From: Amoebophrya sp. A120
Taxonomy: Eukaryota; Protista; Dinoflagellata
Reading direction: 5' to 3'
Length of the DNA: 43,805 bases
Assembly: GCA_905178155.1 (NCBI GenBank)
Contig: CAJINV010000043.1
Span: 19,055 to 62,859 of the forward strand
In this document: piece after piece, positions 1 to 32,499 of the stretch
How the letters are laid out: the number at the start of each line of letters is the position of its first letter
Numbering within the stretch: position 1 is the first letter of the stretch
Position numbers and translations under genes: made by a program
Notes under the pieces: generated by a model
The model's input: the letters and a program-made list of their open reading frames with translations, nothing else
What the model was told of the DNA's origin: nothing
Databases searched by the model: none

Positions 1-264
1 GCAACAATCCCCAAAGACGCACGGCACACCATCAGAGTGGCGCGGTGTGCGCACTCTCTCCGGGGCCCCGACATTTGCGGGCGAATTCCTGCCAAATTTC
101 TCGGCCAAGTCGGGCCGACCGAATCGGCAGACCGCAGCACGGGAGCAACAATCCCCAAAGACGCACGGCACACCATCAGAGTGGCGCGGTGTGCGCACTC
201 TCTCCGGGGCCCCGGCATTTGCGGGCGAATTCCTGACGAATTTCCCGGCCAAATCGGGCCGACC
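1..264. repeat. 144-bp tandem repeat (~1.8 units, cut by window start)
   Basis: GCAACAATCCCCAAAGACGCACGGCACACC... occurs at 1 and 145; the second copy diverges after ~235. Confidence 0.9.
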
Positions 265-7000: not shown

Positions 7001-10000
7001 GATCATCGCAGGTGGAAACGAAAATCACAGAGAGGAAGCTCGTTCGCATAAGAATAGCTCCTGTGCTGACAACGGACAACATGCCAAAGAATTAATCGGC
7101 GAAGAAACGAGTAGCGGTAACGTAGAGCAGGACGAGAACGCAATCAGCACGGCACAGGAGGACCACGACGCCAGTAATCAACATCTGCCCGAAGGAGCAG
7201 GAGCACCCGCGCCGGAGGGACCGTCGCGACGACCAAATAAGGTGCCGCAAATATATGCGGTTCAGACGAGGGACGGAAGATTAGTCCCAACAGACGAAGA
7301 AAGCCACAGGATCGTATGCAGGGAAACAAATGTGTTCAAATCTAGTTCTAGAAGGAATTTGTGTTGTTGGTTTGCTTGCATTGCAGCATGAAAAAGCAAT
7401 CAAAGATTGCATGACGAATTCCCATCTGCTCGACGCACGATGACAAAAACTCTGCACCAACGCGTAAGATCTGCAGCACAGATGTTCTTGCTGTCCCTCA
7501 GATCTACTCACACCACACAAAAAATCTGGATAGTTTTGAACGTTTTTGCCATCCATACCAGGCAGGAAAAATCGTAAGAAGTTGCAAGGGGTACACGGAT
7601 CATATCATGTGCAAAAGTATCGTACTCGTACTAATCGCAGTCGTGCATGACAAAATGCTTTCCATACCTGAATCAGCATGACAGATTCCATTTTTCAGCC
7701 GGCTGCGGTCGTTTGATTTCTACCAGAAGTGCGAGGATACTCTTGCACTGCATAAAGTACGAGGGCGTCGACGAGGAAGGAGAGGGTCTCTTCGACGAGC
7801 CAGAGCAGAGTCATCAGCAAGACAAACAACTTCGCAGCACTAGCACCCCGATGAAGCGCAAGCACCTCGGGAACGATGAGCCTGAGCTCGACGATGAAAG
7901 CGACAAAGCTGCGAAGACTCCATATGTTGGCAATTGTGAAGCACGAGAACAACACCAGAGCCCGAAGGTTGATGGAGCAGCCGGATCTTCCACCAGTGTG
8001 GTTCCGCGCGAGGAGGAGCGGCTGCTGATGACCCCCAAGTCGGACAAGAAGAAGCGGAGGAGATCTCTGTTCGAGATTGCGGGTGACCGCCACCAACAAG
8101 AACAGCATCTGGATGATGAACTACCACATGGCGCCGACGTCGCTCACAGCAGTGCCAGCTCTTCCGAAGAGGACAGCGAGTTGCAAGAGGCACTACTGAA
8201 CGACGCCCAGGAACAAGTAGACCGTCGTGGTGCATCAGCGATAGGAACTTTCTTGGACGAGGATGGAGGAATCGACGCTGAGAAAAATAACCAGGATGCT
8301 TCCTTTCTGGCCCAGTATGCATTGCGAAATCATGTGGATTTTCTCGTAGTCGTACTGGTTGCAAGGATGCAAGACCAATGATTTCTCCTTCCGTATTAAA
8401 ACTCTAAAACTACCCCGTATTGTAGTTTGATAGCAATTTCTATGTACAACTGCGAAGATCATAACTATGCTTTTGCAATGCATACGCAGCATCAACTACA
8501 AGCGAGTGTGAATCAGGACGTCGAAATGGAGGACGTAGAAATGGAGGACGTGGAGGGCTTATGCAATGCAAAAGCATCGTACGAGTTGTATAATTTGCAT
8601 TACAAATTCCCTAAGCATTAGAAATTGAATTTGTGATGCTGATTCACCTTGAGAAAGAGATTTGTAATGCCGAAATGCAATTACTACGAGTGCGATACTT
8701 TTGCACAGGATAAGGCTACGAGGATGAAAACGCTGACGAACAAAGAGACGCACACGACCCCGAGGGCGGAAGGTCCGTCGAACAAGAAGTGTCCTCCCGG
8801 GATGTTGCCGACGAGGAAGAGGCAGGGCAAGAAAATGAGGAAGAATTGTCCCGGCCCGGTGTCGAGGAGCAGGTGGCACAAGATGAAAACGAAGAGCACA
8901 GCGGCTTGGCTCCGGAGAATATCACACCCTTCGGTGGTCGAAGTCAACCCGTGCATCAAACTGGGAGCGATCGGGAACAAACGCCGGCAGGGCAGCAAAC
9001 CGTGTCATTTGCAGATCCGAAATTCTTCCCCTCACCACAACCAGGACGTTTATGAACCGCAAATATGTCTGGCCCTGGAAGATTCTAAACTTGTGATGCT
9101 GTCTCTGAAATCAGAAGAAATTTGTATTGTGTGGCCAGCAATAGAACTCCAGTTTGCCTTTGCGCTACGCGGAGAGAGCATTTCTCATGCGAAATAGGCA
9201 TTGGGAAGCCCTGCGAAAGTCTGTGATGCTAGTGCATGCATTACAGACCTCATGGGTCATCCAGAATATGCATGACAAATCTGGCAATCTTCCAGACCGA
9301 GATACTTTTGCAGTTCATAATGCTCGTTGCTAGCCGAAATCATGATCAGTCGCACCCCCGTATCCTTTGCAAAAGTATCGTGCTCGTACCAATTGCGTTT
9401 ATGCATGACAAATCTTTTTGATTTCTGCATTACAGATTTGATTTGTAATGCTAAGGTAATTTGCAATGCAGTTTACACTAGTGCGATGCTTTTGCAGTTC
9501 ATACCCCGCGTCACCGAAAAGACGACAGGAGGGAAGTTCCAGTGGGAGTAGCGAGGAGCAGGCGAAAAGGATGAGGAAGAACGGGGAAGGTGCCAGAAAC
9601 TACACTTACACGGCCAGTGAGGTAAGGAACTTTCCTCCCAACTGGGCGTATCAAGTGCCACGATGTCTGGGTCTTGAAGAATAGATGTTTGTCATGCTTG
9701 TTTGGCATGACTGGTAAATCTGTCATGCACGTTATCCAAGAGCAGCCCCACTTATCTGTCATGCAGAAACGCAGTTTGTCATGCAGCAGAAGCAACGCCT
9801 AGAAGCTCGGAAACTTGTCATGCTGAGCCAGCACTTGCGGCCTCCTCATGACACGCCACTTAGCATCACAAGTTTCCAGAGCCAGACCCAGATGTATTTG
9901 CAGCGCATAGGGCGGTGCCAGTTGGGGCGGTGCCAGTTGAAGGAACAGTGAACACGCCAAACTTCGGGGGCGGTGCCAGTACTTCTTCTAGCAACAGCGG

Positions 10001-13000
10001 AAATTTCGCATTTGCCCCACAGCAAAACGAAGACAATGACAACGTTCGCGGTGGTGCCGGTGCTCCTTCTAGTAACAGCGGAAATCTCGCCCCGCAGCAG
10101 CAAATGCAAGACGAAGGCAATGAAGACAACTTTCGTGGCGGTGCAAATGCTTTCAGCAGCAGAGGAAATAATTTCGTGCCCGAGCGAGGCGAAGAGAATG
10201 AAGAGCAGCAAGCCCAGGATGAGCAACATTTGTCCACAGGTTCAGCGTCCTCCTCTCCAAGACAATACCAACCAGACGGTGATAAGACCGACGAATTGCC
10301 GAGGGTGAGCTGTACTACTCCCAAGCGCCGTAGTACATCCTCCCGCCCAAACTCGAAGCAGCGTGGAGTTTCCGGTACCTACGAAATGCAGGGACCGTCT
10401 CCGGCGGGAGAAGAGCGGACGGAGAGTATCGTAAGGAAAAATGATCCCCCCTCCCCGTATCAAAACGAAGTTTCTGATGCTGGATTTCCGTACACAAATC
10501 AGATTTGTCTTGCAGTACTAGGGGACTGCAGGCATATGCCAAGCCTGAGCCGAGAGGCTTTGCCGTAGGCGAGCAGCATGGCAACTGTCTATTGCTGCAA
10601 GCTCAACAGCATCTTCACAAACCGCCTGCATAATGCGGCGGAGTCTCTGGCTTTGCCTTCTTGCAAGACAGACAGGACTTGTGGCCCGCAAATCTGCATC
10701 GCAAATTTTCAAACCGATGCACTTTCCACATGGGGAGGGGGGATTTTCCCTTACGATAGAGAGATACCGGGAGAAAATGAGCTTGACTCATCGTAGTGAG
10801 CAGTCGAGAAAGCTCGAAAAGGAACGGCTACAATATAAACTGCTGAGGTGTTACAATCTCAAACGCCACAATAGAATGCGGAAATCTGTGATGCAAGAAG
10901 TGCATGATCTAACATACTCCCACAGGACTGCGCATGACAAGTTTCACAGCACCAAACCGCACTAGAATCTGGCGAAATTTGTATTGCAGAAAGTGGAATG
11001 CTGTCCGAGTCTGTCATGCTCGTCATGCAGTAAGTACATGTACAAAATCCAGACTCTATTGTAACGTTTCAGATTGTAACGCTTGAGCAGGTCATATAGA
11101 AAAGCAGAAGTTGCGGCGCGAACGGAAAGAAGCAAATTCATCCTCGTCGCGGGCGAGCTCGAACGACTCCAGTTTTGTTCAAGACGGGCGAGGACCGCCA
11201 GCACAGCATCTTGAACTACCTGGTCGCAGGAGTACCAGCGTCGCGGCGTCTTGTATGCACAATAAAAAGACCCAACATCTCTATCCATTTTATGCATGAC
11301 AAACACAGGCCCTGACGCATGTTTTGCATGACAAAGTGGATGCTGGGTTTGGCCCTTTTTTTGTGGATAACTTCCTCCTCTCCGGAACAAGAACCGGGCC
11401 GTGCGTCCGATGCCGTCGTGCCAGAAACGCATATCAAATGCAAATATGTCTGGGTCCTCTGGGAGATAATTGCGAGATTTGTCATGCTAGTCTGGCATGT
11501 TGACTCTGAACTCTGCATTCCGTGGCCGCGAAGAGCAGCTCCTCTTGCCTGTCATGCAAAATCGCAGTTTCTCATGCGGAGTACGCAACTCAGAACCACG
11601 GCAAAACTTGTCATGCCGGGCAGCGTATAATTACAGGCTTTCCCTATTCCCTCTCTTGCGCCACAAGTTGCCAGACCCAGACATTTTTGCAGATGATAAG
11701 GCAGCAACCAGTGCAACAAACAGCAACCCTGGGAGTAGGAGCAACAAATGGCGCCTATGGCGCTCTCAGCTGTTGCATTCTCAACTGTTACATGAATTTG
11801 TGATGCAACAATGGCGAAAGCGACAGGGGGGAGCTTGCGTGTCGTGCATGACAGATTTGGTACAGATTTAGACGCTGTCTAGCAATTCGATAATTTGTCA
11901 TGCAAAGCAGCTTGGTCGCCTGGTGGCTTATGGCCATTTTGCATGACAAATCATGTAACAGCTGAGAATGTAACGTTTGAGAACGCCATAGCGCCAGGTG
12001 GCTCCCCGGGTTCGAACTACCATGGGTCGTGCAACAATTACAAGGACTCGCGGCAGCGGCAGCGTCATCTTCTTCTTCTTCGCAGCAGCAGCACCAACCC
12101 GCTATCCTGTGCTGAAGTATCGTACTCGTATTGCAGTCATGCATTACAAATTTGCCTTCAAATAAGGTAAATCCGCATTACAACTTCTCTTTCTCATGCT
12201 GAGGAAATTTGTAATGCACTTATACGAGTACGATACTTTTGCAGTTCATACCCGTAGTAGTACAGCCCAATAATGCATCTTCTTCTACGACACCAGGACC
12301 AGGCGTCATCAGGAATAATACAACGCCTGTGGTGAAAAAAGAACCCCCAAAAGCTCCCCGCCCTAGCCTTCAACCGGTGTATGACTCTTGGCACAAGAAC
12401 CACGAATGGCGTGAGAAAATATGCACTTGCGAAAGCATCGTAGTACCAGTAGTGGTGTACTATTTCATCACGTAGTTGTACATAAAATTTGCTCAGCATG
12501 ACAAGTGGAACTTGTACTGTTGGTTGTAGCTTTGCCTTTGGAAAAAGACTTGTGTTTATGTTGCCTATTATCCTGAGTAAAAACGTACCCACACCAGAGT
12601 TGTCATGCAGATTTACCATGACAGGAACATTTGTGATGCGCAACCCCGTGACAGGCATTTTCAATCGTGTTTGGGAACTTAAATGCTGTAAAGAGGATCA
12701 GCAGATCGATTTGTGATGCGGCTTCCCTTGCTAACTTGCACTACCTTACGGACTGAAACTTGTCATGCGTGACTCCCAAAGCTCCTAGGTTTGTGTTGCA
12801 AAATTGTGTAAATGAAAACTGGTTTTAAACGCTGTTTCTCATAGATCAAAATAGAAAAAATGAAGAGGATGATAAGAAAAAGCCACGAAAGCGATCAAGC
12901 GAGAAAAAGGGCCACAATACAAGGAAAAGCAAGCAAATTCTTGCCACGATCGGAAGAAAAAGGAAAGGGAAAAGAGAAGAAGAGAAAAGCAAAGAAATTA

Positions 13001-16000
13001 GGTCTGATTCACGCTGAATCCGCATGAAAAACTGGCTTTCTTACTACTTTCAAGAAGCGGAGCCACGGCTACGAGCACGTTAGGAATACGGATTTAGCAT
13101 AAGCAACTGGAAAAACTAGACTGGAGATGATGAATCTGTAATGCGTATTTGTGGAATTCGAAGTAGTCTTAGATGGTGTTCGAATTTGATTTCGGTATGC
13201 TTGCGTTTGAAAAATAACCTCTCCATTTCGAAACTAGATCCCACAATTGGTGGAGAGCCTGGGCATAGTTCGACTCAGATGCAGCGCATACCTTTACCGT
13301 TTTAGCTAGATACCCTACCCCTATGGCCTCGGAGAACCGAAAGAAGAAAGACGAATACGCGCAAGAAGGAGAAACAGCACCGCGGAAGGAAAAACGACTA
13401 CGACATGGAGCGAGCTGCATGACAAGCAGTGAGTAAAAGCCTCAGCTTTTTTAGTAACAGCTACTGGAGACGAAGACCTGCTTGACTGGGTGTGAAGAAC
13501 GCGCGCTAGATTGATAGGACGCAACAAACAATGTAGAGGACGGGACTAAGTACGACGCGAAGCTTTGGACGGAGTACAACCGCGCAAAGAATGTGGCTTG
13601 CGAGATGCTGAAAAAAGACACACTGGAAATCGACAAGACCAGTCCCAGAACCGGAAACCGCCTTCGTACGTTTTAGACCACGGGGAAGATTTGTTTTTAG
13701 ACCGCTGGATATATTTGTTTAACGGGACCTCAGTCGCGCTATAAAGTTCGCGGGAACTAGTTCGGCAAAACGACGCGGCTGGGGTACGTTCCAAGATTTG
13801 TTTACGGATTCGGGTTTTATTTTGACAACGGGATACGATTTACGATTTTTATTTACGGATGCGGGTTTTACGGTTAAGCGATGGCAGTGATGATTTTCGA
13901 TTTGTTAACGAGCAGCAGAACACGATCGAGATTTGAAGGCGCGGAAAATTCCGGCAACAGTAAAACAAGAACAACGGGGCACAGCTACAGAAGACGTCGA
14001 AGGGTTGCTTGCTACTTTGCTTAGCCCACTAACGAACCGGGAGCGACTCAACAAGACGGACCACTGTAGGCTGCCTACCAGTTCACAGATTTGTAAGCGA
14101 TGAGAAGACTCGGCGTTGTGTTTTTGCAGGCGATCACGGGTGCGCTGGCAGCGTTTTCAATTTCGAACGCAATAGACAGAGGCGCTTGCGCGCAGTAGTA
14201 GTTTTCCAGGGTTTGTTTCGAACAGTGCGGACAGATGAAGCAAGACCTCCTCCTCTCGCGGCAGCATGAGGACCTGGCTGGGGAAACCACAGATAGCAGT
14301 AGACCGCGTCTCGATCGTTCTCTTGTTTCCGACGTGATAGGGGTTTGCTCCTGGCGCAGTAGTAATAGCGCAGCGACATTAGTGGCTGTCCAAGATTTGC
14401 TTTTCGCCACGCACAGCAAGCGAGACACGAAGTAGTGCGCACCAGTAAACTCCGTTCTATTTCCGGCCCAGTTTCAGAAGCAGTTCGTAGACCTCGGCAA
14501 AGCAGTCACGTCCAAGATTGCAGTTTTTCATCCTACAGAAACCGACGCACGCGGTACAGAACCGGCAGAGCAGCAATAGAAGCAGCAGTAGTAACTAAAA
14601 GAGGGAGACTTTTGTAGAGGCGAGGACACTGAATTGAAGAGAAGACTTTCTTTAGGCTTTCGCAGTTCAAGCCTGCGATAGAATGGCGCCCAGCAGGCAC
14701 CAAGGTTGTACGATGAAGAACAAGGCACCAGACTCAAGACCCCGACCCTCCCTTATTTGTGTTCGCAGCACCGGTAGAAGACGATCAAGATTTTGTGTTC
14801 GAAGTTCACGATGAGAAGATGAAGAAGTTTCAGTCAGGGGGCGTGTAGTCGTGTAGCGACTTGGCTAGTGACTGCAACTTCTTCCGGATGGTGTTCTCGA
14901 TGTGATTCAAGATTCCGATGCAGTACGGGCTCCGTTATCGACTTTCAGTAGCTAGCTGACCTACCGGGATTCAAGATTTTGATTTTGGGTTCGGGATCCT
15001 GACTTGTGTTCGCGGTTTCAAGCTTTAATGCTATCGGGCTCCAGGAATAACTAGCTACCGAGGACGGGCGTTTTCGATTTGTGTTCGGGATGAAGCAGGA
15101 ACACTAGATGATGGTGGTGATGAAGATTTGATATCGGGCTTCGGGATTTTAGGCACTAGTAGATCTTGGTGAAAAGCAGGCAGGCTAGCGTAGAACACTC
15201 GGGCAGAGGTGCGAAAACACCGGGAGAACAACAAGAAGAAAACCCGGGACAGCACTAGAACACGGGCACAGACTACGAACGCAAAGCAGCAACAGAAAAG
15301 CAAGAGCAGAAACCAGGACGCAGCGAAGAGAATAGCAGGAAAGACCACCGACACGAACACGGAAGACCAGGAACAGGAACACGGACAAGCAGACAGACGG
15401 GGAACGGAGAAGACGCGAATGCAGAAAAGAGTACGGGGGCGAAGGACGACTTCGATTCTAGCGAGGTGTAGCAGACAGAGACGATTTCTAATTTTGACGC
15501 GGGACCAAAGAAGAACGTTTGGAACACAGGACCCGGAGTAGCAGTGCAGGTTTTAGGAGAAGTAGAGACGGAGACTAACTCTGAGGGCCAGCAGTAGTAA
15601 TGACGAAGTGCGGAGCAATGGTTTTCGGAAAGTAGCAGCGTAGCAGTAACAGTTACGGCCTCAGGGTTTTTACATTTCACGGATGGGGGCGCATACAAGA
15701 TTTTGGAGCACGGGAATGACGACAAGCCGAAGAACATGCGGAGTTTGCAGATACCGGCACAGCAGATCGTGGCTTCGGTCCAGCGCAGTGGCAGCGCGAC
15801 GTTTTGGATGAAGACGACGACCTTCGTATGGCGTTAGGGGGCAGTGCCACCTGCCGATGCTGGGAAGATTTGTTTTCAACCGACGGCAGTTTCAATTTCG
15901 TCTATGATCCGACGCGCCGAAGCAGATGTTCCCGACGACCAGCAGATAGGTTTCTGCACGACTTTGCCACTTCCCCGATGAAAAAATTGCTTCTGTACCG

Positions 16001-19000
16001 CGACCGCCTTGGAAGTGTTGGCGAAGACTCCGCACGATTTCAATTCTAAGCCCACCTGACGACCACGGGCGACGACTGCATCCTTCGCAACGACTTTTTT
16101 GTGCACACCGACCGACATAAGCTTGTTTTCCAGATTTGAAGATGAACTTGCAGAACGAACGGGATTCCGGTTTGGAAATTTGTCATGCAGTTTACGCTGG
16201 GGGCGCCGAAGATTTGTTTCTGTTCACGACAAAAGATCACGACTCGACGAACCACTTTGGAATAGCAGAGCGCCCGACGCTGATACGATGCGGAAGAAGC
16301 GTTTGATTTTACCACGGACCTGGAATTTGTGATGCAGATTTTCTGTGCAAGAATTCGCTTCCGGACTACACGACACGGAGTTGCTTCTGGACACTCAAGA
16401 ACCGACGGAAGTGCGAATTTGTCATGCTGGACATCGAGAAACTTGGGACTACTTGACGGAGACCTTTTGCTTGTGCGACTACGACGATGTGGATTTGTAT
16501 TGCTGATTTCGGACGACATGCTTTTGGTTGCGACGAGATTCTGCGGTCCGAGATTGAGACACCGCTGCAGATTTGAGTATGGGATTCTTCAATTGGTGCT
16601 TGCATTACGACACTGGACTTGCCGACGACATTACGATGCTGACTTTGGATTTACGATGAGAAGAGCACGATGCTGGGATGGGATAAGAGGACGCGGCGAT
16701 GAGGACTGGAAGATGAAGCGACTGTGGAAAATTGTTTATGGATTTATGCTATACAGATTTGGGCTTACGACTTAGAACTTCTTGTAGGATTTCGACCATC
16801 AGTTTCTGTTTCGAGCCTTTGTAAGATTTGCGTTTTAGATTTTGATTATGAGAAAAAGCGTTGGGGGCGGTTTGTGTAAATGAAAACTGGTTTTAAACGC
16901 TGTTTCTCATAGATCAAAATAGAAAAAATGAAGAGGATGATAAGAAAAAGCCACGAAAGCGATCAAGCGAGAAAAAGGGCCACAATACAAGGAAAAGCAA
17001 GCAAATTCTTGCCACGATCGGAAGAAAAAGGAAAGGGAAAAGAGAAGAAGAGAAAAGCAAAGAAATTAGGTCTGATTCACGCTGAATCCGCATGAAAAAC
17101 TGGCTTTCTTACTACTTTCAAGAAGCGGAGCCACGGCTACGAGCACGTTAGGAATACGGATTTAGCATAAGCAACTGGAAAAACTAGACTGGAGATGATG
17201 AATCTGTAATGCGTATTTGTGGAATTCGAAGTAGTCTTAGATGGTGTTCGAATTTGATTTCGGTATGCTTGCGTTTGAAAAATAACCTCTCCATTTCGAA
17301 ACTAGATCCCACAAAATCCCCATCTTGACTCTGGTGTGGGTACGTTTTTACTCAGGATACCTATAACAACTACTACAACTAGTTTTTTTCTGCCGCGTGC
17401 AATGCTTTTCCAGTGCATAGAAACGCCTGCGGGAATTAAAAGCGAAAAAGCAGAAACATCAGAAGATGCGGGATACTGCAGACGCACTAGCCTGGAAACC
17501 CGAGAAGGTAAGAATTGCGGAGTATCAAATGCAAATATGTCTGGGTATGGAAGATTCCGAGATTTGTGATGCAGTTTATCCAAGCTCAACCCAGTCTGGA
17601 ATGCAGGGTCTAGCGTCACAAGATCTACTGCAGCCCCTTGAGCTTGATGATGCCTGTTCTGCATCACAAATGCCCTCTCAGCATGGCCAGAAATGGGCAC
17701 CTTTTGCAAGTCACGCAACGGCACAGATTTTTGTACGATCCGCAACATGCATCACAAGTTCACATCCTTCCAGACCCAAACATATTTGCAATGCATACGG
17801 AGCACGCGGAAGCAACCCAGCGAGGGAAGTCCGATAAAGAAACTTACGGCGGCGAAGGGGTATCGCAAGAAAAAACTGCTACTTCATTGTGAGCTTGCAA
17901 TGCGGATTTTGTATCGCAATTGTTTCTGGCAAAAACTTCAGGAGTGTTTGTCTTTCTAAATATGCATAGAAAATGCATTTTTAGTTGTGTTTTCCCCTAG
18001 AGGAAATGCTCGCATGGCACACTTTCTATTGTGATGTAGAGCTGCGCGCTTGTGATGCAATAAAACTTGCGAAATCAATAAACAAAATCATCACAGTGAC
18101 ACAGTTTTTTCGCCGGATAATGGGGTTTGCGCGATGAATTCCCCACCACGGCTATCCTGAGTAAAAACGTACCCACACCAGAGTTGTAATGCAGATTTGC
18201 AAAGACAGGAAGACTCGCAATGCGCATCCCTTTGAGAGCCATTTCCAATCGTGTTTTGGAATTTGTGATGCTGTGAACAGGATGAGCAGCTGGATTTGTG
18301 ACGCGGCTGCACTTGCTAACCTGCACTACACTGCAAAGCTCAACTTGTCATGCGTGACTCACAAAACTCCTAGGTTTGTGTTGCAAAATCCTCATCCTAA
18401 CTCTGGTGTGGGTACGTTTTTACTCAGGATAACGGCAGGAACCCGCGTTGTTCCAACAGAGAACAACACGGAAGCACCGGAACAACAGAACGTACCCGCG
18501 CAAAACGACTCGTGGAAAGAAACGTGCACGAGAATCGAAAAGGAACTTCTCCAGGAGCTGGGCGTACACCACGGGAAGCGACAGCTAGTAGACGTATCAA
18601 GATTCATATCGCAAGAAAAAAGTGTTAGAGTTACACACTGTGTTGCAGGCCAAGCAAGACAGACAAGCTCTGTCATGCCGGATATGCGTAGGAGCCTCGT
18701 CTTATAGCCTTTTCCCGTAGGATTTCTGCATCACAAGTTTTCTCTCTCATGCTGAGAAATTTGTGTTGCTAAATTCGCTACAAATGTGTAACTGTAAGAA
18801 AACTTTTTTCGTGGGATAATGCATGATAAAAGCCGCGGTAGAAAGACTGATCAAGCTATCCTGAGAAGCAAAAACGTCTCCAAGCCATAGTCAAGATGGG
18901 AAATAACGTGCTAGACAAATCAACAAGCTTTGGTACTTGTTGCGCATGACAGGTTTGCCCTTTTAGTATGATCGATGTGTTTCGTTCGTCTAGTAGCATT

Positions 19001-19519
19001 ACAGGTCTAGCGTATTGTGCTGATTAGAGCATTGCAAATTTTTCCAGAACACAGCTATGAAATGCTTCTCATAGGGTTCCGCATGACAAACGTTTTGAGC
19101 ATGCAGATTGCTATTGGGTGAGGACGTGGCTTTTACACAGGATACAAGCGACACGAGAAAGAAGGAAACGCCGACCGCGCAGAAGAGGTCCGGCTATGGA
19201 AAATCAAATGGGAAACGACAGGTGGAGATAAGTTTTATCCTGTGCAAAAGTATCGTGGTCTAATATTAACAATAATGCATGATGACTCTGTTTTCTTGAC
19301 AAGCCTGAATCTCGTGCATCCGCATGGTAGTACATACGAAAGAACTTCATTTTCCGCTTTGGTGGAGAATGAATTTGTCATGCAATTTGTACAACTAGTC
19401 TGAAGATGCTTTTGCAATGCATAAGCAAGCCGGAGATGCTCCTTCGCGCTAGCCGGGATTTCGGACTAGATGCTAATGCGGTGAGAAGTGACTCGAAAGT
19501 TTCCATATTGGTTTTCTGA
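1029..19519 (+). CDS. Gene 1: large multi-exon hypothetical low-complexity protein (S/T/A/E/K/Q-rich), ~30 non-canonical introns plus some GT-AG introns; 3' end approximate
   Basis: ATG 1029 (MMSNGGAAGG). ORF fragments 1586, 2203, 2589, 3380, 6675, 8789, 9915, 12239, 17466, 18189 join in frame at the junctions tested. Not all junctions resolved; could be more than one gene. Confidence 0.7.
1110..1364. mobile_element. Introner family D
   Basis: TATGGGATAGTTCTCAAACGTTAC ... GTAAACTTTGAGAATCGCATA; DR CTGTT/CTATT; join gives AAS-IAGRSAANK. Confidence 0.75.
1475..1636 (+). other. Canonical GT-AG intron (phase 0)
   Basis: GTAAGG donor, TTCAG acceptor; join gives VESDG-VGEDEW. Confidence 0.65.
1685..1883. 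mobile_element. Introner, family B-like (diverged)
   Basis: TATGCTCTGCAAAAATATCG ... CGGTATTTTTGCACAGAATA; DR AAGAG/AAGAC. Confidence 0.7.
1923..2201. mobile_element. Introner (diverged)
   Basis: TATCCTGTGCAAGAAAAG ... CTTTTTACGCAGGATG; DR TACGC/CATGC; join gives FHT-RALYAQRR. Confidence 0.6.
2379..2594. mobile_element. Introner family E
   Basis: TATCGTGGGAAAAAAGTGTTACAGTTACAC ... GTGTAACTGTAACACTTTTTTCCTGTGATA; perfect DR CAAAA; join gives YLQ-KHQRLL. Confidence 0.9.
3034..3315. mobile_element. Introner family A
   Basis: TATCAACTGCAAGTATGTCTGGGTCTGGA ... TCCAGACCAAGACACTTTTGCGGTTGATA; perfect DR TACGG; joins ORFs 2589 and 3380 in frame. Confidence 0.9.
3917..4237. mobile_element. Introner family F (diverged ends)
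   Basis: CTCCCCGTACTAAAA ... TTTTCAGTATGGGGAG inverted pair; interior resembles 23847-24157; DR unclear. Confidence 0.7.
4442..4657. mobile_element. Introner family A-like (diverged)
   Basis: ATTTGGGTCAGGAAG ... CTTCCCAGACCCAGACCTGTTTGCAATGCATA; DR CGAGA/CGAAG. Confidence 0.55.
4974..5238. mobile_element. Introner family D
   Basis: TATGACGTCCTCAAACG..CTCAACTGTTACATG ... CATGTAACAGTTGAAAACGTAAAGTTTGAGAGCTCCATA; DR poor. Confidence 0.7.
5816..6086. mobile_element. Introner family A
   Basis: TACCAAATGCAAGTATGTCTGGGTCT ... AGACCCAGACATATTCGTATATGCATA; DR poor. Confidence 0.65.
6461..6686 (+). other. Canonical GT-AG intron (phase 0)
   Basis: GAG|GTATTG ... TTCCAG|GCC; join gives NRKIRSE-ANSRKPSS. 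Confidence 0.65.
7603..7754. mobile_element. Introner family B
   Basis: TATCATGTGCAAAAGTATCGTACTCG ... GATACTCTTGCACTGCATA. Confidence 0.7.
8316..8484. mobile_element. Introner family B-like
   Basis: TATGCATTGCGAAA ... TTTTGCAATGCATA; DR CCCAG/CGCAG. Confidence 0.7.
8560..8712. mobile_element. Introner family B (reverse orientation)
   Basis: TATGCAATGCAAAAGCATCGTAC ... GTGCGATACTTTTGCACAGGATA; DR GGGCT/AGGCT; join gives DVEG-YEDENADE. Confidence 0.85.
9051..9319. mobile_element. Introner family A body with B-like outer termini
   Basis: TATGAACCGCAAATATGTCTGGCCCTGGAAG ... CTTCCAGACCGAGATACTTTTGCAGTTCATA; DR ACGTT/ATGCT; frame restored. Confidence 0.8.
9361..9503. mobile_element. Introner family B
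   Basis: TATCCTTTGCAAAAGTATCG ... CGATGCTTTTGCAGTTCATA; perfect DR CCCCG; join gives SRTP-ASPKRR. Confidence 0.9.
9649..9909. mobile_element. Introner family A-type TIR
   Basis: TATCAAGTGC..ATGTCTGGGTCT ... AGACCCAGATGTATTTGCAGCGCATA; perfect DR GGGCG; join gives NWA-VPVGAV. Confidence 0.85.
9960..10176 (+). repeat. Coding tandem repeat (~28 aa x ~2.5; N(F/V)xGGA..SSxxxN)
   Basis: Repeated NFGGGASTSSSNSGNF / NVRGGAGAPSSNSGNL / NFRGGANAFSSRGNNF in ORF 9915. Confidence 0.75.
10427..10758. mobile_element. Introner family F
   Basis: TATCGTAAGGAAAAATGATCCCCCCTCCCC ... GGGGAGGGGGGATTTTCCCTTACGATA; perfect DR GAGAG; join gives RTE-RYREKMS. Confidence 0.9.
10834..11096. mobile_element. Introner family D
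   Basis: TATAAACTGCTGAGGTGTTACAATCTC ... AGATTGTAACGCTTGAGCAGGTCATA; DR TACAA/TAGAA. Confidence 0.75.
11254..11369. mobile_element. Short introner-like element
   Basis: TATGCACAATAAAAAGACCCAACATC ... GATGCTGGGTTTGGCCCTTTTTTTGTGGATA; DR TCTTG/ACTTC. Confidence 0.55.
11432..11698. mobile_element. Introner family A-type TIR
   Basis: TATCAAATGCAAATATGTCTGGGTC ... GACCCAGACATTTTTGCAGATGATA; DR ACGCA/AGGCA. Confidence 0.85.
11756..11990. mobile_element. Introner family D
   Basis: TATGGCGCTCTCAG..CATTCTCAACTGTTACATGA ... TCATGTAACAGCTGAGAATGTAACGTTTGAGAACGCCATA; perfect DR GCGCC. Confidence 0.9.
12103..12250. mobile_element. Introner family B
   Basis: TATCCTGTGCTGAAGTATCGTACTCGTAT ... ATACGAGTACGATACTTTTGCAGTTCATA; DR CCCGC/CCCGT. 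Confidence 0.9.
12805..13245 (+). repeat. 5' LTR
   Basis: TGTGTAAATG...GATCCCACA; appears identical to 16873-17313 by eye. Confidence 0.95.
13248..13266 (+). promoter_or_regulatory. Primer binding site, probably tRNA-Ala
   Basis: TGGTGGAGAGCCTGGGCAT 2 bp after the LTR; reverse complement ATGCCCAGGCTCTCCACCA fits tRNA positions 58-76 with A58, C61, U70, A73. Confidence 0.8.
15650..15910 (+). pseudogene. Possible degenerate reverse transcriptase remnant
   Basis: VTASGFLHF (cf. LD..SGF.QI), RMALGGSATC (cf. RMPFGL..AP.TF) and FVYD (cf. YxDD) appear in the correct order; match is weak. Confidence 0.35.
16850..16872 (+). promoter_or_regulatory. Polypurine tract
   Basis: GAGAAAAAGCGTTGGGGGCGGTT immediately before the 3' LTR. 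Confidence 0.65.
16873..17313 (+). repeat. 3' LTR
   Basis: Direct repeat of 12805-13245. Confidence 0.95.
17523..17797. mobile_element. Introner family A-type TIR
   Basis: TATCAAATGCAAATATGTCTGGGTATGGAAG ... CTTCCAGACCCAAACATATTTGCAATGCATA; perfect DR CGGAG; join gives RIAE-HAEATQ. Confidence 0.9.
17861..18119. mobile_element. Introner family E-like (diverged)
   Basis: TATCGCAAGAAAAAACTG ... CAGTTTTTTCGCCGGATA; DR AGGGG/ATGGG. Confidence 0.65.
18153..18431. mobile_element. Introner family C
   Basis: Perfect TIR TATCCTGAGTAAAAACGTACCCACACCAGAGTT; perfect DR ACGGC; join gives PTT-AGTRVV. Confidence 0.95.
18607..18818. mobile_element. Introner family E
   Basis: TATCGCAAGAAAAAAGTGTTAGAGTTACACA ... 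TGTGTAACTGTAAG..CTTTTTTCGTGGGATA; DR ATTCA/ATGCA. Confidence 0.8.
18857..19144. mobile_element. Introner family C-like
   Basis: TATCCTGAGAAGCAAAAACGTC ... GACGTGGCTTTTACACAGGATA; perfect DR CAAGC. Confidence 0.8.
19236..19423. mobile_element. Introner family B-like
   Basis: TATCCTGTGCAAAAGTATC ... GATGCTTTTGCAATGCATA; DR poor. Confidence 0.7.
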
Positions 19520-21067: not shown

Positions 21068-24000
21068 ATGGCCGCACAAAAGGACAAAGGTAATAAAACG
21101 CCGCAGGGCGGCGGCGACCTCGAAGAATCCTTCTTTACCGAGGACGAAGATTCATATGGGAGGAAAAAAAGTTCTAGGATCTTTCGAGGAGGATTATTTT
21201 GCGTTAAATGCAATAGACTACGCAGAAGTCGCAGACGCAGCAGAATTGGCAAACGCAAATTGGTCATGCTGCATTTTTGAACTGATGTTTTTGTCAAAAT
21301 TTTGACTCATCAGCAAAATTTCCCCTATATTTCGTCCTGTAAACTTTTTTTTCTCGTCCACAACCCTGTCCATATCGACCTCACTGACTTGAACAGCACC
21401 GCCTACAACAAGGTCGTGAGCAAGATCCAAGACCAGTACGAAATCGTGAAGGTACAAGTTGTTTAAAAATGCCTGTCTTTCTACACACGCATGAAGCTCA
21501 TGTCAAACCTAAACAAGCATGACAAATTTACAAATTCTTCACCAGGCAAATAATCATAAACAGGACGGCAACGCGTCTGCGGGGTCGAGTACGAGACCGC
21601 CGGCACCGGTAAAGAGAATTACGGTCAGTGCAAGGATTACAGTTCAGGTCCGTGAAAAGCCTGGCGGCACGGTGAAGAAGAACAATTTATTGTCAAAGAA
21701 CAAACCGGCACTACCCGTGACCAAGGGTAACGACAAGAATAAGAAGAACGCAGCTGCCGGTGGTGACAAGGAGAAGCAGAAAGGCAAGTCGAAAAACCTG
21801 CGCACGACGTCTTCCAGAAAACGGATTAAGGTAGGCAAAAGCAACCAGATGAAACTCGATAAGAAGGCCGCAGCGAAGAAGGAACAGGAGCTGCAAAAAC
21901 GACAGGTGGATGCGGTGTTAGGCCAGCTTAAGCACTTCACTGTATCCTGTGCAAAAGTATCGTACTCGTACTGCAATCATGCATTACAAACCTCTTTGTT
22001 GACGTTAAGTCAAATCCGTATTACAAATTTTATTTCTCTTGCTGAGGAAATTTGTAATGCAATTATACAAGTATCGGATAGGATTAGGAATAGGATACTT
22101 TTGCAGTGCATACACTGAGCAGAACGGCAAGAACACGGAGATAACCGACGAGATGGAGGAAGAGTTCAGAGGCGCTTTGGGGATATCAAATGTAAAAATG
22201 TCTGGGTCTCCTGGAAGATTACCAGGTTTGTCATGCATATTTTGAATGACCCATGATGTCTGTGATGCATGCCCTAGCATCACAGACTATTAAAGGACTT
22301 TGCGACGCCTCTACCGCTTGAGAAATGCCCTCTCCGCGTAGCACAGACCGGAGTTCTCTTCCTTGTCATGCAATACAAATTTTGTCAGAATCCAGAGGCA
22401 GCATTACAAGTTTAGAACCTCGTTCCAGACCCAGACATTTTTACATTTGATTGGGGATGATGCTGTGCTACATGGACGCCATCGTCACCGGAAACGGCTA
22501 TGGAATTCCCAAATCGGTTACCTTCTCAACCGTTACAATGAACTTGTCATGCAAAACTACCTTGAGCCGACAGACGTTGAAGCTACTTCGCATGACAGAT
22601 CTCCGAAGGGTGCTAAACACCGTTTAGATCTTTTCCAAAAGATGCGAGATTACCCCTTTCCCTGCCGCGGCTTTTGCATCACTGATTTATGATGTACTAC
22701 GGTTGAAAATGTATCGACGCTTGAGAACTCCATACAAACAATGCAAAAGATCTGGCTGACGTGAGAAACGAGCTGCGCGACGAGACGATGAAATTTCACA
22801 ACTTGCTGAAAGCAGTGGGGTATCAAATGTAAAAATGTCTGGGTCTGGAAATTTCAATTTGTGATGCTGAAATGTGCATAACAAAAACGCTCCCTCATGC
22901 AGCAGGAGAGCATAAAGTTTGCAGAACGTTTCCTCATACGCATTCCGCATGAGAAAGAGAAACTGCGTTTTTGTATGACAAGGGAGGCTGCGACTTTTGT
23001 GGGTCATGCAATACAGATCTCACAGGGATGCAAGACCAGCATTACAAGTTCCAACTTTATTCCAGACCCAGACATTTTTGCACTAGATATGGGGCCCCGA
23101 AACAGTGTCGACCGGAGGAAATGGGCTTGTCATTCCCTATGGCTTGCAAAAATGTCTGGGTCGGGAAGATTCTAAACTTGTGATGCTGTCGCTGGATTCT
23201 AAAAAAATTTGTATTGCATGACCAGCAAGAAGACTCCAGTTCGTGCTACCCGGAGAGGGCGTTTCTCATGCGGTGGATGCATCACAAAGTCCTCTAAAAA
23301 TATGTGATGCTAGGGCAGGCATCACAGACATCATGGGTCATTCAAATTGTGCATGAGTGATAAAGCTGGCAATCTTCCCGACCTAGATATTTTTGCAGTT
23401 GATATTCCCTCGATGCCCTCGAAGCAGCGAGCGACGTGCTTCAGGGGTGGAAGAGGACCTGCTTCAACCCTCTCAAGGAGACACTGGATGATCCAGTCGT
23501 GCAGTCCGTTTTCGTACCAAGTGCAAAAATGTCTGGGTCTGGAAGAATGCAAATTCTGATGCTGCATTTGGACTCCAAGAAAATCTGTATTGCATGAGTA
23601 CTAGCGAAGGGAAAGCAATTTTTGCGACGCTCTTGAGGAGGCATTTTTCATGCGGAATAGGCATCAAGAAGCGGTCAAAAAATCTGTGTTGCTAAGGTAT
23701 GCATCACAGACATGATCATGGCTCATGCTAAACGTGCATTTGACAAGTGTAAGAATCTACTTCCTGACCCAGACATTTTTACATTTGATATTTCGACGCT
23801 TATGAAAAGAGGAAGACCTCCTCGTCTATGAAGATGACGGAGGCGATATCACAAAGAAAAATCCCCCCTCCCCATACCAAAACGGAGATTTGTGGAGCAT
23901 GATTTGCTACCACAAATCATGTTGTCATGCTAGAAGGCAAAAGATGCGGACTGTAGTGCTGGCTGGCGTGGGAAAACCTTGCATGTTCAGCATCACAGGA

Positions 24001-27000
24001 GGCCACTTTAAGTGGGAAACGGCATGACAAATCGCCTACAATTTTGGCCGCAACTGCGTCTGTTGGCCTTCTAGCATTACGAGTCGATTTGTGTACGCAA
24101 ATCCAGCATCACAAATGTCCTTTTCAATATGGGGAGGGGGGATTTTTCCTCACAATAGGCGATGAAAGAAGATTTAACGCAAGCTGTGCGAAGGATGAGG
24201 AAGTATTTTCTCGACGCCGTGGAAAACTGGACGGACGAACACGAAACTTCCATTACCGAAACCCAGAATAAGCTAAAAAAGGCGTTACGCGATTTTCGCG
24301 ACGTGTGCCGCGCAATCAAGATTTCCGAGCGCGAGGTGCCTCCGCTGTGCGAGTCTGTTACCAAAGCGTGCACGCATTATCCTGTGCAAAAGTATCTGAT
24401 ACTCGTATTGCAATCATGCATTACAAATCTTCTGCTAAAGGTAAATCCCCATCACAAATTCCATTTTTCATGCTGAGGAAATTTGTAATGCATTTATACG
24501 ACTACGATACTTATGCAATGCATACGCCTGTGGTGATAGGGATATTCCGAACCCAGATCGACTGGAATATGGAGTATGGAGTTCTCAACCGTTACATTCT
24601 CAACTGCATTACATGAATTTGTCATGCGAAACTAGTACCATCATCATCCACAAGATCAAGCTGCTTCGCATGACAAATTTGCGAAGGCGGGCTAAACAGC
24701 ACCTAAAGCTGCGCGAGATTTTTAATGCAATTTTTGCACCCTGTCTTCCCCCTTTCGCTTTTATTGCCATTCTTGCATTACAGATTCATGTAACAGTTTT
24801 GAGAATGTAACGTTTGAGAACACCATAGGGAGAGCGCAGAATTTCGAGAGGAAGTGACACGGAAATATGAGGAGTTCCGCCAGGAGGCGGGATTGTCGGA
24901 GGAAAGTCGTTATAAACTGCAAAAGTATCCGATACTTGTGTAAATGCATTACAAATTTTCTTGGCATGAGAAATAAAATTTGTAATGCGGATTTAGCTTC
25001 AGAAAATGATTTGTAATGCATGATTGCAATACGAGTATCAGATACTTTTGCACAGGAGCGTCGTGCGAAAACCCCCGTGAACAACGAGCCGCAAGAAGCT
25101 GGTACTGCGGCGACCGTGAGCAACAAGAAAAAAGAACTCCACCCGGTCGTGCAGAGCGTGTTTGAAGCGAACAATGAGGATGGCAAAATGGAAATAACGC
25201 CGAAGAAGCAGGTAGAATTCGTGGAAGCTTTCGACCGGATTATATGCAAGAAGAAAACTGTGGAAGTGTAAATTTGTGTTGCAGAAGAGGATGCAAGACA
25301 CCAACACTTGTCATGCTGGACATGCATCAGAGGTTCTTCTCGTAAAGTGTTTGCACCGATACCAGCAATACACATGAGAGGTTTATTTCTCTGTCATGCA
25401 GGGCCGAGCAAATTTGTGATGCTGTTCCTCGAAGAAAGTTACACTTTTACATATTTTTTTTCCTGGATAGATCAACCGATACTTTCACAAAATCGTAGAA
25501 GGGAGCCCGGAAGATACAGATCTCGATCGAAACAAGGACTTGTTGCGGGAAGCGAAAATCGACTTTGACGCCCTGTTGGAGGAGCATATCAAATGCAAAA
25601 ATGTCTGGGTCTGGAAGGATGTAACTTGTGATCATGCTATCTCTGGATTCTAAAAAAATCTGTATTGCATGACCAGCAAGAGGGGTCGGGTTTGTCCTAC
25701 GTGGAGAGGGCATTTCTCATGCGGTAGAGGTATCGCAAAGCCCTCCAAAAATCAGTGATGCTACGGCATGCATCACAGACATCATGGCTCATGCAACATA
25801 TGCATGACAGATCTAGAAATCTTCCAGACCCAGACACTTTTGCATTTGATAACGCACGATATCGAGCAACCGTCCGAAAAGTGGCTAAAAGCTGAAAGAG
25901 CGTGTGATGATGTGCTGAAGGGGGAAAAGAGGACCTGCTTTGACTCGGAAGCCGAGCCGGACTCTGACGTCTCACAGGAAGGGCGCGCGGTGGAGAACGA
26001 AACGAACTTGCAGAATACGGTATGAACGACGTAGAATTATTGTTCCTTCCGGTATCATATTGGTCGAAAAAACGGTATTTTTGTGTTCTACAAACCATGA
26101 TCCGTGAAAAATCTACATCTCCATTTACGACGCAGCTGTCGTTGCATTTAGATGAACCGAAAACGAGAAATCATAATCAAAGTCCATACCAAAATCGTTT
26201 CCCTCAGGTCCAGGTGCGTGCGGAGTCCCCCGTGGTCGCCCCCCGCTCGGCTGCGCAATTACTCCTTGCCCCTGCTGGCAGTTCCAGGTCACCGTGTGCG
26301 GATTCGTTCGAGGCCTTGAGACAGCAGGACCAGGAAGATAGTAACGGCGAAGAAAGAAGTGGCGCCCAGGACGGGGAAGTACAAGGGCAACGTTTTGAAG
26401 AAGGTCGTGCTCCCGCGCAGAACGACGAGTTGGAGATGAACGAAGGACAAGACCACGGTGACGCCGCACAAGGAAAAAAGGCAACCAAGATGAAGAAGGC
26501 AAAAAAGATGAAAAAGGCGAAGGAAAATAACGAGAACAACACACCCGCCGCTCTGCTACAGGGCAACGCAACGTCCTCTAGCACGATGGCCGGTCAGGGT
26601 GCGGTGGCGGCGCGCGGAAAGTCATCGTCATCGTCCATTTTTAGTGCGGTACTGAATTCTGGTTCCATGTTGAAGGATTTCAAAAATGATCTCGTTCTCA
26701 ACATTTTTGCAGTACTTACAGTCTGCAATTCATCACGGTAATTACTTCGATGTTTAGAAATGTCACAGAAACAGAACAGAACTCTTATTTTCTGGACCGG
26801 AATTCAATCCAATTCGTATAATTACACCAATATCAGGTATCGCACGGCAAGAATCTCATGGCGACCGTCCCTTCGAGCAGCAGTGTCGAACAGAAAATAT
26901 GAGAATGCACAATCCCCCACGTCGTCCCCCGGATCTGTAATGCATAAACAGAAATATTAGGAGCATCGGCAACAGAAAGAGTACAGTATGCGCATTACAG

Positions 27001-31160: not shown

Positions 31161-31240
31161 GCGGCCGAATTTCTGGGGCATGGGGGCGGCCGAATTTCTG
31201 GGGGGTGGAGGCGAGCGAATTTCTGGGGCATGGATGGGGG
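31161..31240. repeat. ~25-bp G-rich tandem repeat x3 inside a GC-rich island
   Basis: GCGGCCGAATTTCTGGGG(C/G)... three copies. Confidence 0.75.
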
Positions 31241-32499
31241 AGCCGATATTGATCGCCCAGCAGGTGCGGCGCAAGTCCGCGGCCGCTGCCCTCGGCAGCC
31301 TGGCGGATGCCGCCGCCGCCGGCTAAGTACCGCGCCGGCTACTTGGCCGGCCGAGCCTCTTCCCTGCCGGCCCGCCCCCCCGGGGGCCCTGGCCGTACAC
31401 GCCCGCGCGCCCGCGGCGCCGTTTGCCCCGGTGGGGCAGGGTAGCAAGCCCCGCGCGCGCCCCGGCCTCAGCTGCCGGCGCGGGCCGGGGAGGGTGCGGG
31501 CAAGCCATCCGCAGTGCAATCGATTACACGATGGCGCCAAAGAAAGTCGCGACGAAGGAGATCGGCACGTGACCGGGGAGCGCGCGAACAAAGCCCGCGA
31601 AAGCGGTCAAGGGCGCCGCTCGAGATGTTTGAGGACGCTGCGAAGCCGGCCTTTCTCCGATCAGTTCTTTCAGCAGGGCGCCAGGCGGTGCCTGCCTGGG
31701 GCCAGTCGGCCCCTTTGTACCCGGGCGCCGCGCCGGAGTTGTGCGTGCGAGCCCGGGGCCCGTTTCCTTTCCACGGGCCGGCGCCCCTGCTGCCCCAAGC
31801 GGCCAGGCGCGGCGCCGCCCTTCGCCGCCGATGGTGTTGCCCCCCGCCCGGGGCGCCCCTTTCGCGGGCGGAGCTTGATTGGGGGGCCCAGGCTTTGTTG
31901 CCTTCCCGCCCTTGCTTGGTTGCCGCTGGGCCGCTGAGGTCGCGGGCCTGCGCCGGTGGCTGTGGGTTGCCGTTGCGCGGAGATGAAGCGGCGCGCCTCC
32001 CGCACTTGGCTGCGTGGCCGGTGCCCGTGGATAGTCTTGGGCGCCGCGGTGCGGTGCGTAGCGCATTCGCGACTCGCAATGCGGAGCTCTCTGCTGAGTA
32101 AGAAAGTGCCTCACCGAGGTACAGCGCTTCAATCGCCGGCTGCGGCCGCGGAATGAAAAACTCTCGCGCGCCCCATGATAATTGGGGCCCCATGACAACG
32201 ATGCTCGTTGCCTGTCCTTCTGTGTTCGAGTTCGCACCGGCAGAGCCGTCTGATGATCAGGCCGGTGGCCATTCAATACGACGAAAGCCTCATATTTTGC
32301 TTTCTTTCAACGTGTCGCTTCTGGCTGTCGAACTTGAATTGTGTTATGCGGCTAGCGCATTTTTGTTAGGCGGTATTTTGCGGTTACTTATAGAAATAAC
32401 ACGCCACGATTTTTTACGCCAACTGAAGAACCTGGACGAAGGCATAAGATTCCCGTATGACGAGGAGTACTTAAAGCTTTCACATCAAACTCGATCATC

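What the first reader, a model, noticed from the sequence alone, without database searches (positions are those of the whole stretch)
12420..17419. Three-level nested intron: introner > introner > LTR retrotransposon
Seen: the outer element (DR GAAAA/GAAAC) contains a family C element (12569-17359, DR CCTAT), which contains an LTR element (12805-17313, TSD AAAT). Removing the LTR element regenerates TTGCAAAATCC, matching the empty site in sibling 18153-18431. Removing the whole nest joins HEWRE-KRLRELK in frame. Inference: the removal system tolerates 5 kb between paired ends or works recursively from the inside out, and introners act as safe havens for other transposons.
Basis: partly seen in the sequence, partly recalled or inferred. 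Interest (0 to 1): 0.85.

Follow-up and report, generated by a model that had tools for sequence, protein, structure and literature searches.

The report
Five-kilobase nest of transposon-derived introns
In the marine parasite Amoebophrya A120, a small hairpin-ended transposon inside a gene holds a second such transposon, which holds a young 4.5-kilobase non-coding retrotransposon, and the whole 5-kilobase nest is likely cut from the messenger RNA by pairing of its ends, which would make it a natural test case for this organism's unexplained way of removing introns.

Summary
The anatomy is confirmed to the base. An outer element (12420-17419) holds a family C element (12569-17359; perfect 32-bp inverted ends, perfect 5-bp duplication). 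That holds an LTR element (12805-17313; identical 441-bp LTRs, 4-bp duplication, primer site, purine tract, no coding domain found). The host exon matches a published Amoebrophrya A120 protein, so the two outer layers are the known A120 introners.

Removal of the nest from RNA is likely but not shown. An RNA-type contig stops matching at 12418, the last base the predicted join allows, but its 140 further letters were not displayed. The two neighbouring introners are spliced exactly by the same rule, and the frame stays open across the nest.

Only two layers are intron-like; the LTR element is a passenger. Inside-out removal would still start with a 4,796-nt step, so long-range end pairing is needed either way. 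One case cannot show a safe haven. The RNA could also come from cells lacking the very young LTR insertion.

Verdict: a real new variant of a known kind, useful as a test substrate. Interest 0.45.

The parts
12251..12418 (+). host exon upstream of the nest (56 codons, open)
   Evidence: 100% match to P0001/P0002, the published A120 model, which ends here; RNA-type contig X6 record 14 matches 12293-12418 with 0 differences
12415..12419 (+). left copy of the outer 5-bp duplication
12420..12568 (+). outer introner, left part (inverted end about 12420-12438; the last 5 bases are the middle element's left duplication)
   Evidence: weak interior similarity to other short introners of the window (7 hits, 76-100% over 16-47 nt)
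12569..12804 (+). middle (family C) introner, left part; inverted end 12569-12600; the last 4 bases are the LTR element's left duplication
12805..13245 (+). 5' LTR, 441 bp
   Evidence: 0 of 441 differences from the 3' LTR
13248..13266 (+). primer-binding-site-like stretch, 2 nt behind the 5' LTR
   Evidence: its reverse complement reads as a tRNA 3' end: CCA, A73, U70, C61-C63, A58. U70 with A73 points to tRNA-Ala (recalled identity rule; the cognate tRNA was not available, 0 tRNAs in the window)
13246..16872 (+). LTR-element interior, 3,627 nt, no coding domain found (non-autonomous)
   Evidence: 47 stop-to-stop frames of 50 aa or more, longest 186 aa; no Pfam family at its cut-off in 20 of those frames or in all six frames read through stops; X3 contigs with 0 differences lie on 14342-16815
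16853..16870 (+). purine-rich tract before the 3' LTR
   Evidence: 14 of 18 purines
16873..17313 (+). 3' LTR, 441 bp
17314..17317 (+). right copy of the LTR element's 4-bp duplication
17318..17359 (+). middle introner, right part; inverted end 17328-17359
   Evidence: 32 perfect pairs with 12569-12600, duplex -60.6 kcal/mol
17360..17364 (+). right copy of the middle element's 5-bp duplication
17365..17419 (+). outer introner, right part; inverted end about 17402-17419
   Evidence: duplex with the left end -22.0 kcal/mol, within the range of 10 neighbours (-15.1 to -44.8)
17420..17424 (+). right copy of the outer 5-bp duplication
17424..17522 (+). predicted host exon downstream of the nest
   Evidence: in frame after removal of 5,005 nt; the frame continues across five further introners; not seen in RNA or in an annotated protein
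18153..18431 (+). intact family C sibling (279 nt) carrying the empty LTR site
   Evidence: 84.6% identity to the emptied middle element, 33-bp perfect inverted ends, 5 of 5 duplication

Best explanation
Three mobile elements sit one inside the other in a protein-coding gene of Amoebophrya A120, and the whole 5,005-base nest is likely removed from the messenger RNA because the outer introner's two inverted ends are predicted to pair around it, with the interior likely ignored. SHOWN: the nested anatomy; the non-coding LTR interior; removal of neighbouring introners as element plus 5 nt; an RNA-type contig that leaves the genome at 12418. INFERRED, history: a 204-nt introner entered an exon, a 278-nt family C introner entered it, and a non-autonomous LTR retrotransposon in the gene's sense entered that one very recently. 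INFERRED, removal: the pre-mRNA folds into two concentric hairpins. The inner 33-bp stem folds 4.7 kb away and brings the weaker outer ends close together. The cut falls within the 5-bp duplications and leaves one copy. Inner-first removal (4,796 nt, then 209 nt) may occur but would not be obligatory, because the inner element interrupts the outer one's interior and not its ends. The enzyme is unknown (a U1-less spliceosome variant or a structure-guided nuclease plus ligase).
For: (1) Rule: all 6 introns implied by the published model P0002 remove an inverted-end element plus 5 nt (337, 268, 121, 272, 240, 153 nt). Two of them are seen as joints in contigs of both X3 and X6 at exactly the predicted places (11750>11991 and 12096>12250). 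(2) The same rule lets the nest's join slide only between 12413>17419 and 12418>17424. X6 record 14 matches with 0 differences up to 12418 and has 140 more letters beyond the listed piece. P0002 is marked partial and ends at 12412, the last whole codon before 12413. (3) The frame stays open for 227 codons from 12251 across the nest and five more introners; only 35 of 729 combinations of 4, 5 or 6 nt do as well. (4) The minimum-energy fold of the 5,081-nt region pairs both the outer and the inner ends. Outer pairing survived 3 of 3 shuffles of interior 33-mers but only 3 of 6 shuffles of the inner arm: the inner stem helps but is not required in the model. (5) X6 has spliced host contigs at depth 3-4 and no depth in 13328-16583. 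(6) Related introners lie in both orientations in the window, as expected if symmetrical ends are read. (7) In Euglena, 5-bp changes in the centre of a nonconventional intron did not affect splicing (passage of PMC12501133; analogy only).
Against: The join itself was not seen. The 140 loose letters were not displayed, and 6 joints, 187 loose ends and 743 pieces were left out of the answer. No protein record spans the junction: 1 hit among 10 candidates, and it ends at the nest; 0 of 8 candidates for a downstream exon; no candidate among 30-98 aa proteins. The published pipeline did annotate introns up to 35,152 bp, yet its model stops here. The model is also cut short upstream, where the frame stays open back to at least 8714, so this weighs little. 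The open downstream frame does not prove present splicing, because the LTR insertion is too young for decay. X3 and X6 are only guessed to be RNA, are two samples of one study, and lie at depth 2-6. A second contig end (record 10, at 9049) falls one base short of the +5 prediction, so end positions carry about 1 base of doubt. Fold models under-penalise long loops and ignore kinetics. The outer left end carries a one-base bulge relative to the family signature.
Confidence: 0.55

Rival explanations
1. The 5-kb allele is not, or only poorly, spliced. The LTR insertion is a fresh, possibly culture-level polymorphism that damages the gene. The spliced RNA comes from cells whose outer intron holds only the 278-nt middle element, so no long-range removal is needed.
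For: LTRs identical at 441 of 441 bases. Variant contigs of the interior in X3, X8 and X6 show other copies of an apparently active family. The published model stops at the nest. The element lies in the gene's sense, so its LTR could end transcripts early (inference).
Against: X3 holds both spliced host joints and exact (0-difference) contigs of this interior. No contig reading from the exon into the outer element was among the pieces shown (list incomplete).
Confidence: 0.22
2. Obligatory inside-out removal, as in twintrons: the family C element (4,796 nt with its LTR cargo) must be excised first to rebuild a 204-nt outer introner, which is then removed.
For: The inner hairpin is much stronger (-60.6 vs -22.0 kcal/mol), has a perfect duplication and is completed 60 nt earlier in transcription. 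Outer pairing failed in 3 of 6 inner-arm shuffles. The emptied outer element folds with a long interior stem that spans the insertion site.
Against: The inner element does not split the outer ends, and both hairpins coexist in the full-length fold. No intermediate was seen among the joints shown, although the lay did not reach the right end. Even this route needs pairing across 4.8 kb.
Confidence: 0.15
3. The nest is an assembly artefact, or these elements are removed from DNA rather than RNA.
For: No single contig bridging the nest's junctions was displayed. The run types are guesses.
Against: Exact 4-bp and 5-bp duplications, TG...CA ends, a primer site and a purine tract in the right order are not what mis-joins produce (inference). 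The emptied site equals the sibling's. The published study calls these elements RNA-seq-supported introns present in genomic DNA.
Confidence: 0.05

Closest known systems
Introner elements / non-canonical introns of Amoebophrya sp. A120 (Farhat et al. 2021, PMC7789003; read: abstract, sections 5, 10, 11, 12, 16, 25, passages, supplement passages)
   Same: Same organism; inverted ends starting TAT with an A-run, 3-5 nt direct repeats at the borders, no GT-AG, no transposase, predicted hairpin.
   Different: That study analysed introns of 40-1,000 bp only and the word 'nested' does not occur in its text or its one held supplement. Here one introner lies in another and the span is 5,000 nt, against a median of 238 nt for 38 short elements in the window (scan limited to 100-420 nt).
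Amoebophrya A120 introner family 38 and similar TIR-flanked, LTR-homologous introners (Gozashti et al. 2025, PMC12130899; read: passages; 7 of 14 supplementary files searched)
   Same: An intron-forming element with terminal inverted repeats that carries LTR-retrotransposon material.
   Different: Family 38 has ORFs with Copia/Gypsy homology and several near-identical copies. Here the cargo is a whole LTR-bounded element with its own duplication and no coding homology, seen once. No sequence comparison with family 38 was possible.
Twintrons and spliceosomal stwintrons (PMC9024468, PMC8469720, PMC6616335; search listings and abstract starts only)
   Same: An intron inside an intron, with possible consecutive removal.
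   Different: In stwintrons the inner intron splits a splice signal of the outer one, which forces the order. Here the inner element sits 149 nt from the left end and 55 nt from the right end, and the ends are non-canonical hairpin ends.
Non-autonomous LTR retrotransposons (LARD-like; definition recalled)
   Same: Two identical LTRs with TG...CA ends, target duplication, primer site, purine tract, long interior without gag/pol.
   Different: The autonomous partner and superfamily were not identified.
Nonconventional introns of Euglena (PMC12501133; passages)
   Same: Non-GT-AG introns whose ends pair; small central changes tolerated.
   Different: Different lineage and motif; only 5-bp central changes were in the passages seen.

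Membership tests
A120-type introner (middle element) | 8-20 nt or longer inverted repeat at both ends, TAT + 7 bases + at least 3 A | tested here: met
   32 perfect pairs; signature exact at both ends
A120-type introner (middle element) | 3-5 nt direct repeat at the borders | tested here: met
   5 of 5
A120-type introner (middle element) | repeated family | tested here: met
   sibling at 84.6%, a reverse-strand relative at 69.7%; contigs with other flanks loose before 12569 in X3 (5), X8 (3) and X6 (11)
A120-type introner (middle element) | excised from RNA | tested here: inconclusive
   no joint for this copy seen; the sibling's removal is inferred from frame only
A120-type introner (outer element) | inverted ends with the A120 signature | tested here: met
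   8 perfect bases then bulged pairing, 17 pairs; right end exact, left end with one extra base
A120-type introner (outer element) | direct repeat at the borders | tested here: met
   4 of 5, as in 15 of 38 short elements
A120-type introner (outer element) | repeated family | tested here: inconclusive
   only short matches (16-47 nt) to other introners in the window; no genome held
A120-type introner (outer element) | excised from RNA | tested here: inconclusive
   RNA-type contig leaves the genome at 12418; acceptor side not seen
LTR retrotransposon | two direct LTRs with TG...CA ends and a 4-6 bp target duplication | tested here: met
   441 bp, 0 differences, 4-bp duplication
LTR retrotransposon | primer-binding site and polypurine tract | tested here: met
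   tRNA-like 3' end complement at 13248; 14 of 18 purines at 16853-16870; cognate tRNA not checked
autonomous LTR retrotransposon (Copia/Gypsy) | gag, protease, RT, RNase H, integrase | tested here: not met
   no such Pfam family in six frames read through stops or in 20 of 47 open frames; one 76-aa frame gave only 3 weak hits to repeat proteins and no usable Atlas hit
stwintron / obligate twintron | inner intron interrupts a signal needed to remove the outer intron | tested here: not met
   outer inverted ends and direct repeats are intact; unknown interior signals cannot be excluded
stwintron / obligate twintron | splicing intermediate lacking only the inner intron | not tested
   no read-level view of both ends together was obtained
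three-level nested intron | innermost element is itself an intron | tested here: not met
   the LTR element has a 4-bp inverted end only and no introner signature; no joint removing part of it among the 15 joints shown, which could not include its right end

The most novel reading that the evidence does not exclude
Amoebophrya's unknown intron-removal machinery reads only a terminal RNA duplex, at any distance and in either orientation. It processes concentric introners in sequence, giving a twintron made of hairpin-ended non-canonical introns. An introner can thus carry a whole retrotransposon through a coding exon at no cost. If the loaded family C element also moves as one unit, this is the birth stage of the TIR-flanked, LTR-bearing introners reported in A120.
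Probability: 0.2. Interest if true: 0.75.

Novelty: new variant of a known kind. Interest (0 to 1): 0.45.

Why it matters
About two thirds of A120 introns lack GT-AG ends, U1 snRNA was not found, and the removal mechanism is open (PMC7789003). The published intron analysis stopped at 1,000 bp. This locus is a natural experiment: two sets of end signals of different strength around one 4.5-kb passenger. One long-read or RT-PCR experiment would show whether ends alone suffice, whether length matters, and in which order concentric substrates are cut. It also offers a simple origin for chimeric TIR-plus-LTR introners, and shows where gene models in this genome may break. Against high interest: transposons inside introns are ordinary, A120 annotation already lists introns up to 35 kb, and this is one case without the direct join.

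Tried and rejected
X9 (raw RNA reads) gave 1 laid read and is uninformative. X1, X2, X4, X5, X7, X10 and X11 were never laid. Protein searches for a record spanning the junction found none (weak evidence). Metagenome contigs: 596 pattern matches, none confirmed, so no strain comparison. Coding remnants in the LTR interior: Pfam gave two sub-threshold hits (zf-C6H2 E 0.032; Orexin E 0.065), both rejected as noise. A frame with an RNase-H-like look (motif recalled) gave only 3 weak hits summed over repeats of unrelated proteins and nothing in the Atlas; rejected. No Pfam family for the host fragments P0002 and P0003. Alternative LTR borders with a 5-bp duplication were rejected because they lose the CA end and the 2-nt gap to the primer site. 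The idea that the inner stem is required for outer pairing was not upheld (3 of 6). Literature: six searches and term look-ups in six papers found no description of nested Amoebophrya introners. Subscription journals are mostly missing from the library. Seven supplementary files of PMC12130899, which may list such elements, were not searched, and bioRxiv supplements are closed.
Full report
Setting. The window is dense with short elements that begin TAT, end ATA, have inverted ends and carry 5-bp flanking duplications. A heuristic scan limited to 100-420 nt found 38 (median 238 nt, 8,476 bases in all). The exon before the finding matches P0001 at 100% identity over 95% of the query (1 hit among 10 candidates). 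Its cluster holds GSA120T00025984001.1 and CAD7975095.1, labelled Amoebophrya sp. A120, partial. The elements fit the published A120 introners: inverted repeats starting TAT, seven variable bases, then As, with 3-5 nt direct repeats (PMC7789003 section 11).

Observation. Every coordinate holds. The outer element is 12420-17419 with a 4-of-5 duplication. The middle element is 12569-17359 with 32 perfect inverted bases and a 5-of-5 duplication. The LTR element is 12805-17313, with 441-bp LTRs that differ at 0 positions, TG...CA ends and a 4-bp duplication. A tRNA-primer-like site starts 2 nt behind the 5' LTR and a purine tract (14 of 18) precedes the 3' LTR, so the element lies in the gene's sense. 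Emptied, the middle element is 278 nt and 84.6% identical to the sibling at 18153-18431, including the empty site. The emptied outer element is 204 nt. The outer ends alone are not beyond chance (65 pairs found, 13-26 in 10 shuffles); their status rests on the context given below.

The LTR element is a non-coding passenger. Its 3,627-nt interior has 47 frames of 50 aa or more, the longest 186 aa. Pfam finds nothing at cut-off in 20 of these or in six frames read through stops. One candidate frame gave only noise. It has no introner ends, so 'three-level intron' overstates: there are three nested insertions, two of them intron-like. Contigs in X3, X8 and X6 differ from the interior at up to 6 places and point to other copies. 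X3 also has exact contigs on 14342-16815 at depth 2-6.

The removal rule. Mapping P0002 on the window gives six introns, each an inverted-end element plus 5 nt. For two of them, contigs of X3 and X6 show joints at the predicted leftmost places, 11750>11991 and 12096>12250. X3 and X6 are runs guessed to be RNA, from two samples of one study. The gene is therefore expressed and spliced by this rule right up to the nest. Applied to the nest, the rule removes 5,005 nt and keeps the frame open for 227 codons from 12251 across five further introners; 35 of 729 combinations of 4-6 nt do as well. Any partial removal stops 18 codons past the exon.

Is the nest removed? The join can slide only between 12413>17419 and 12418>17424. 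Two records touch the two ends of that range. X6 record 14 (266 nt, depth 3.6) matches 12293-12418 without a difference and has 140 more letters beyond the listed piece, and X6 has no depth in 13328-16583. The next predicted exons offer 99 + 58 nt. P0002 ends at 12412, the last full codon before 12413. Both fit the exact join, but neither shows it. The loose letters were not displayed, 6 joints and 743 pieces were omitted, and repeat masking (mentioned in the paper's methods) could also end a model here. No protein record spans the junction. The model is equally cut short upstream, where the frame is open back to at least 8714. No read-level view holding both ends of the nest, and no DNA-run check for an LTR-free allele, was obtained. 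Because the LTRs are identical, such an allele remains a live rival.

Mechanism. The minimum-energy fold of the 5,081-nt region gives two concentric stems: 33 pairs for the inner ends and 17 for the outer. Duplex energies are -60.6 and -22.0 kcal/mol; ten neighbouring introners range from -15.1 to -44.8. Shuffling an interior 33-mer kept the outer stem in 3 of 3 runs; shuffling the inner arm kept it in 3 of 6. These are small numbers from an equilibrium model, but they fit a helper clamp that is not essential. Related introners occur in both orientations, as expected if symmetrical ends are what is read (inference). I commit to end-pairing-guided removal with non-obligatory order (0.55). Rivals are a damaged or polymorphic allele (0.22), obligatory two-step removal (0.15), and artefact or DNA-level removal (0.05).

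Comparison with what is known. The introners, their hairpins, the missing U1 and the open mechanism are published. That analysis covered 40-1,000 bp only, while the annotation lists introns up to 35,152 bp. A120 introners flanked by TIRs but homologous to LTR elements were reported as unexplained (PMC12130899); this nest shows one route to such chimeras (inference; no sequence comparison made). It works like a twintron but fails the stwintron test, since no end signal is interrupted. Secondary transposon insertion into introns is routine. Six searches found no account of nested Amoebophrya introners, with the limits stated under Tried and rejected. Two unchecked notes of this scan report long or mid-sized hairpin-bounded non-canonical introns in other dinoflagellates; they are leads only, and they lower the surprise of 5 kb.

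Verdict. This is a new variant of a known kind. Interest is 0.45: a clean, testable substrate for an open splicing question, but a single case whose decisive join is inferred.

Noticed in passing
window 9051-9503: X6 record 10 stops matching at 9049, one base short of the element-plus-5 prediction. Of 27 combinations tested, both 5/5/5 and 4/6/5 nt keep the frame open, so two adjacent introners may be cut with compensating one-base shifts.
   Followed up: partly
window 8714-19470 (by eye possibly from about 1026): The host appears to be one long, low-complexity, introner-riddled gene of which the published model P0002 covers only 10104-12412. A downstream exon (18432-18605) found no protein record, and Pfam gave no family.
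   Followed up: partly
window 14342-16816: LTR interior: exact contigs in X3, variant contigs in X8 and X6, and no X6 depth in 13328-16583. This suggests several copies and perhaps sample-dependent transcription; DNA carry-over is not excluded.
   Followed up: no
window 16181, 16328, 16420 (also 13417): The 8-base motif that fills introner interiors (11.8 per kb) occurs three times within 240 nt of the LTR interior (1.1 per kb overall), without BLAST similarity to any introner.
   Followed up: partly
window 28444-28722 and 18857-19144; 22211-22413 vs 25634-25827 and 33936-34138: Relatives of one introner family lie in opposite orientations within stretches that look like + strand genes (70-84% identity), hinting at orientation-independent removal.
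   Followed up: partly
window 1-260: A unit of about 110 bases occurs twice near the window start (at about 1 and 145), seen by eye.
   Followed up: no
window 31001-32000 and 37001-40000: GC-rich blocks (0.73, and 0.56-0.59) between genes, without introners from the short-element scan.
   Followed up: no
window 12612-12794: Contigs about 95% identical to the middle element exist in X3 and X8, closer than the sibling in the window, so family C has younger relatives elsewhere in the genome.
   Followed up: no
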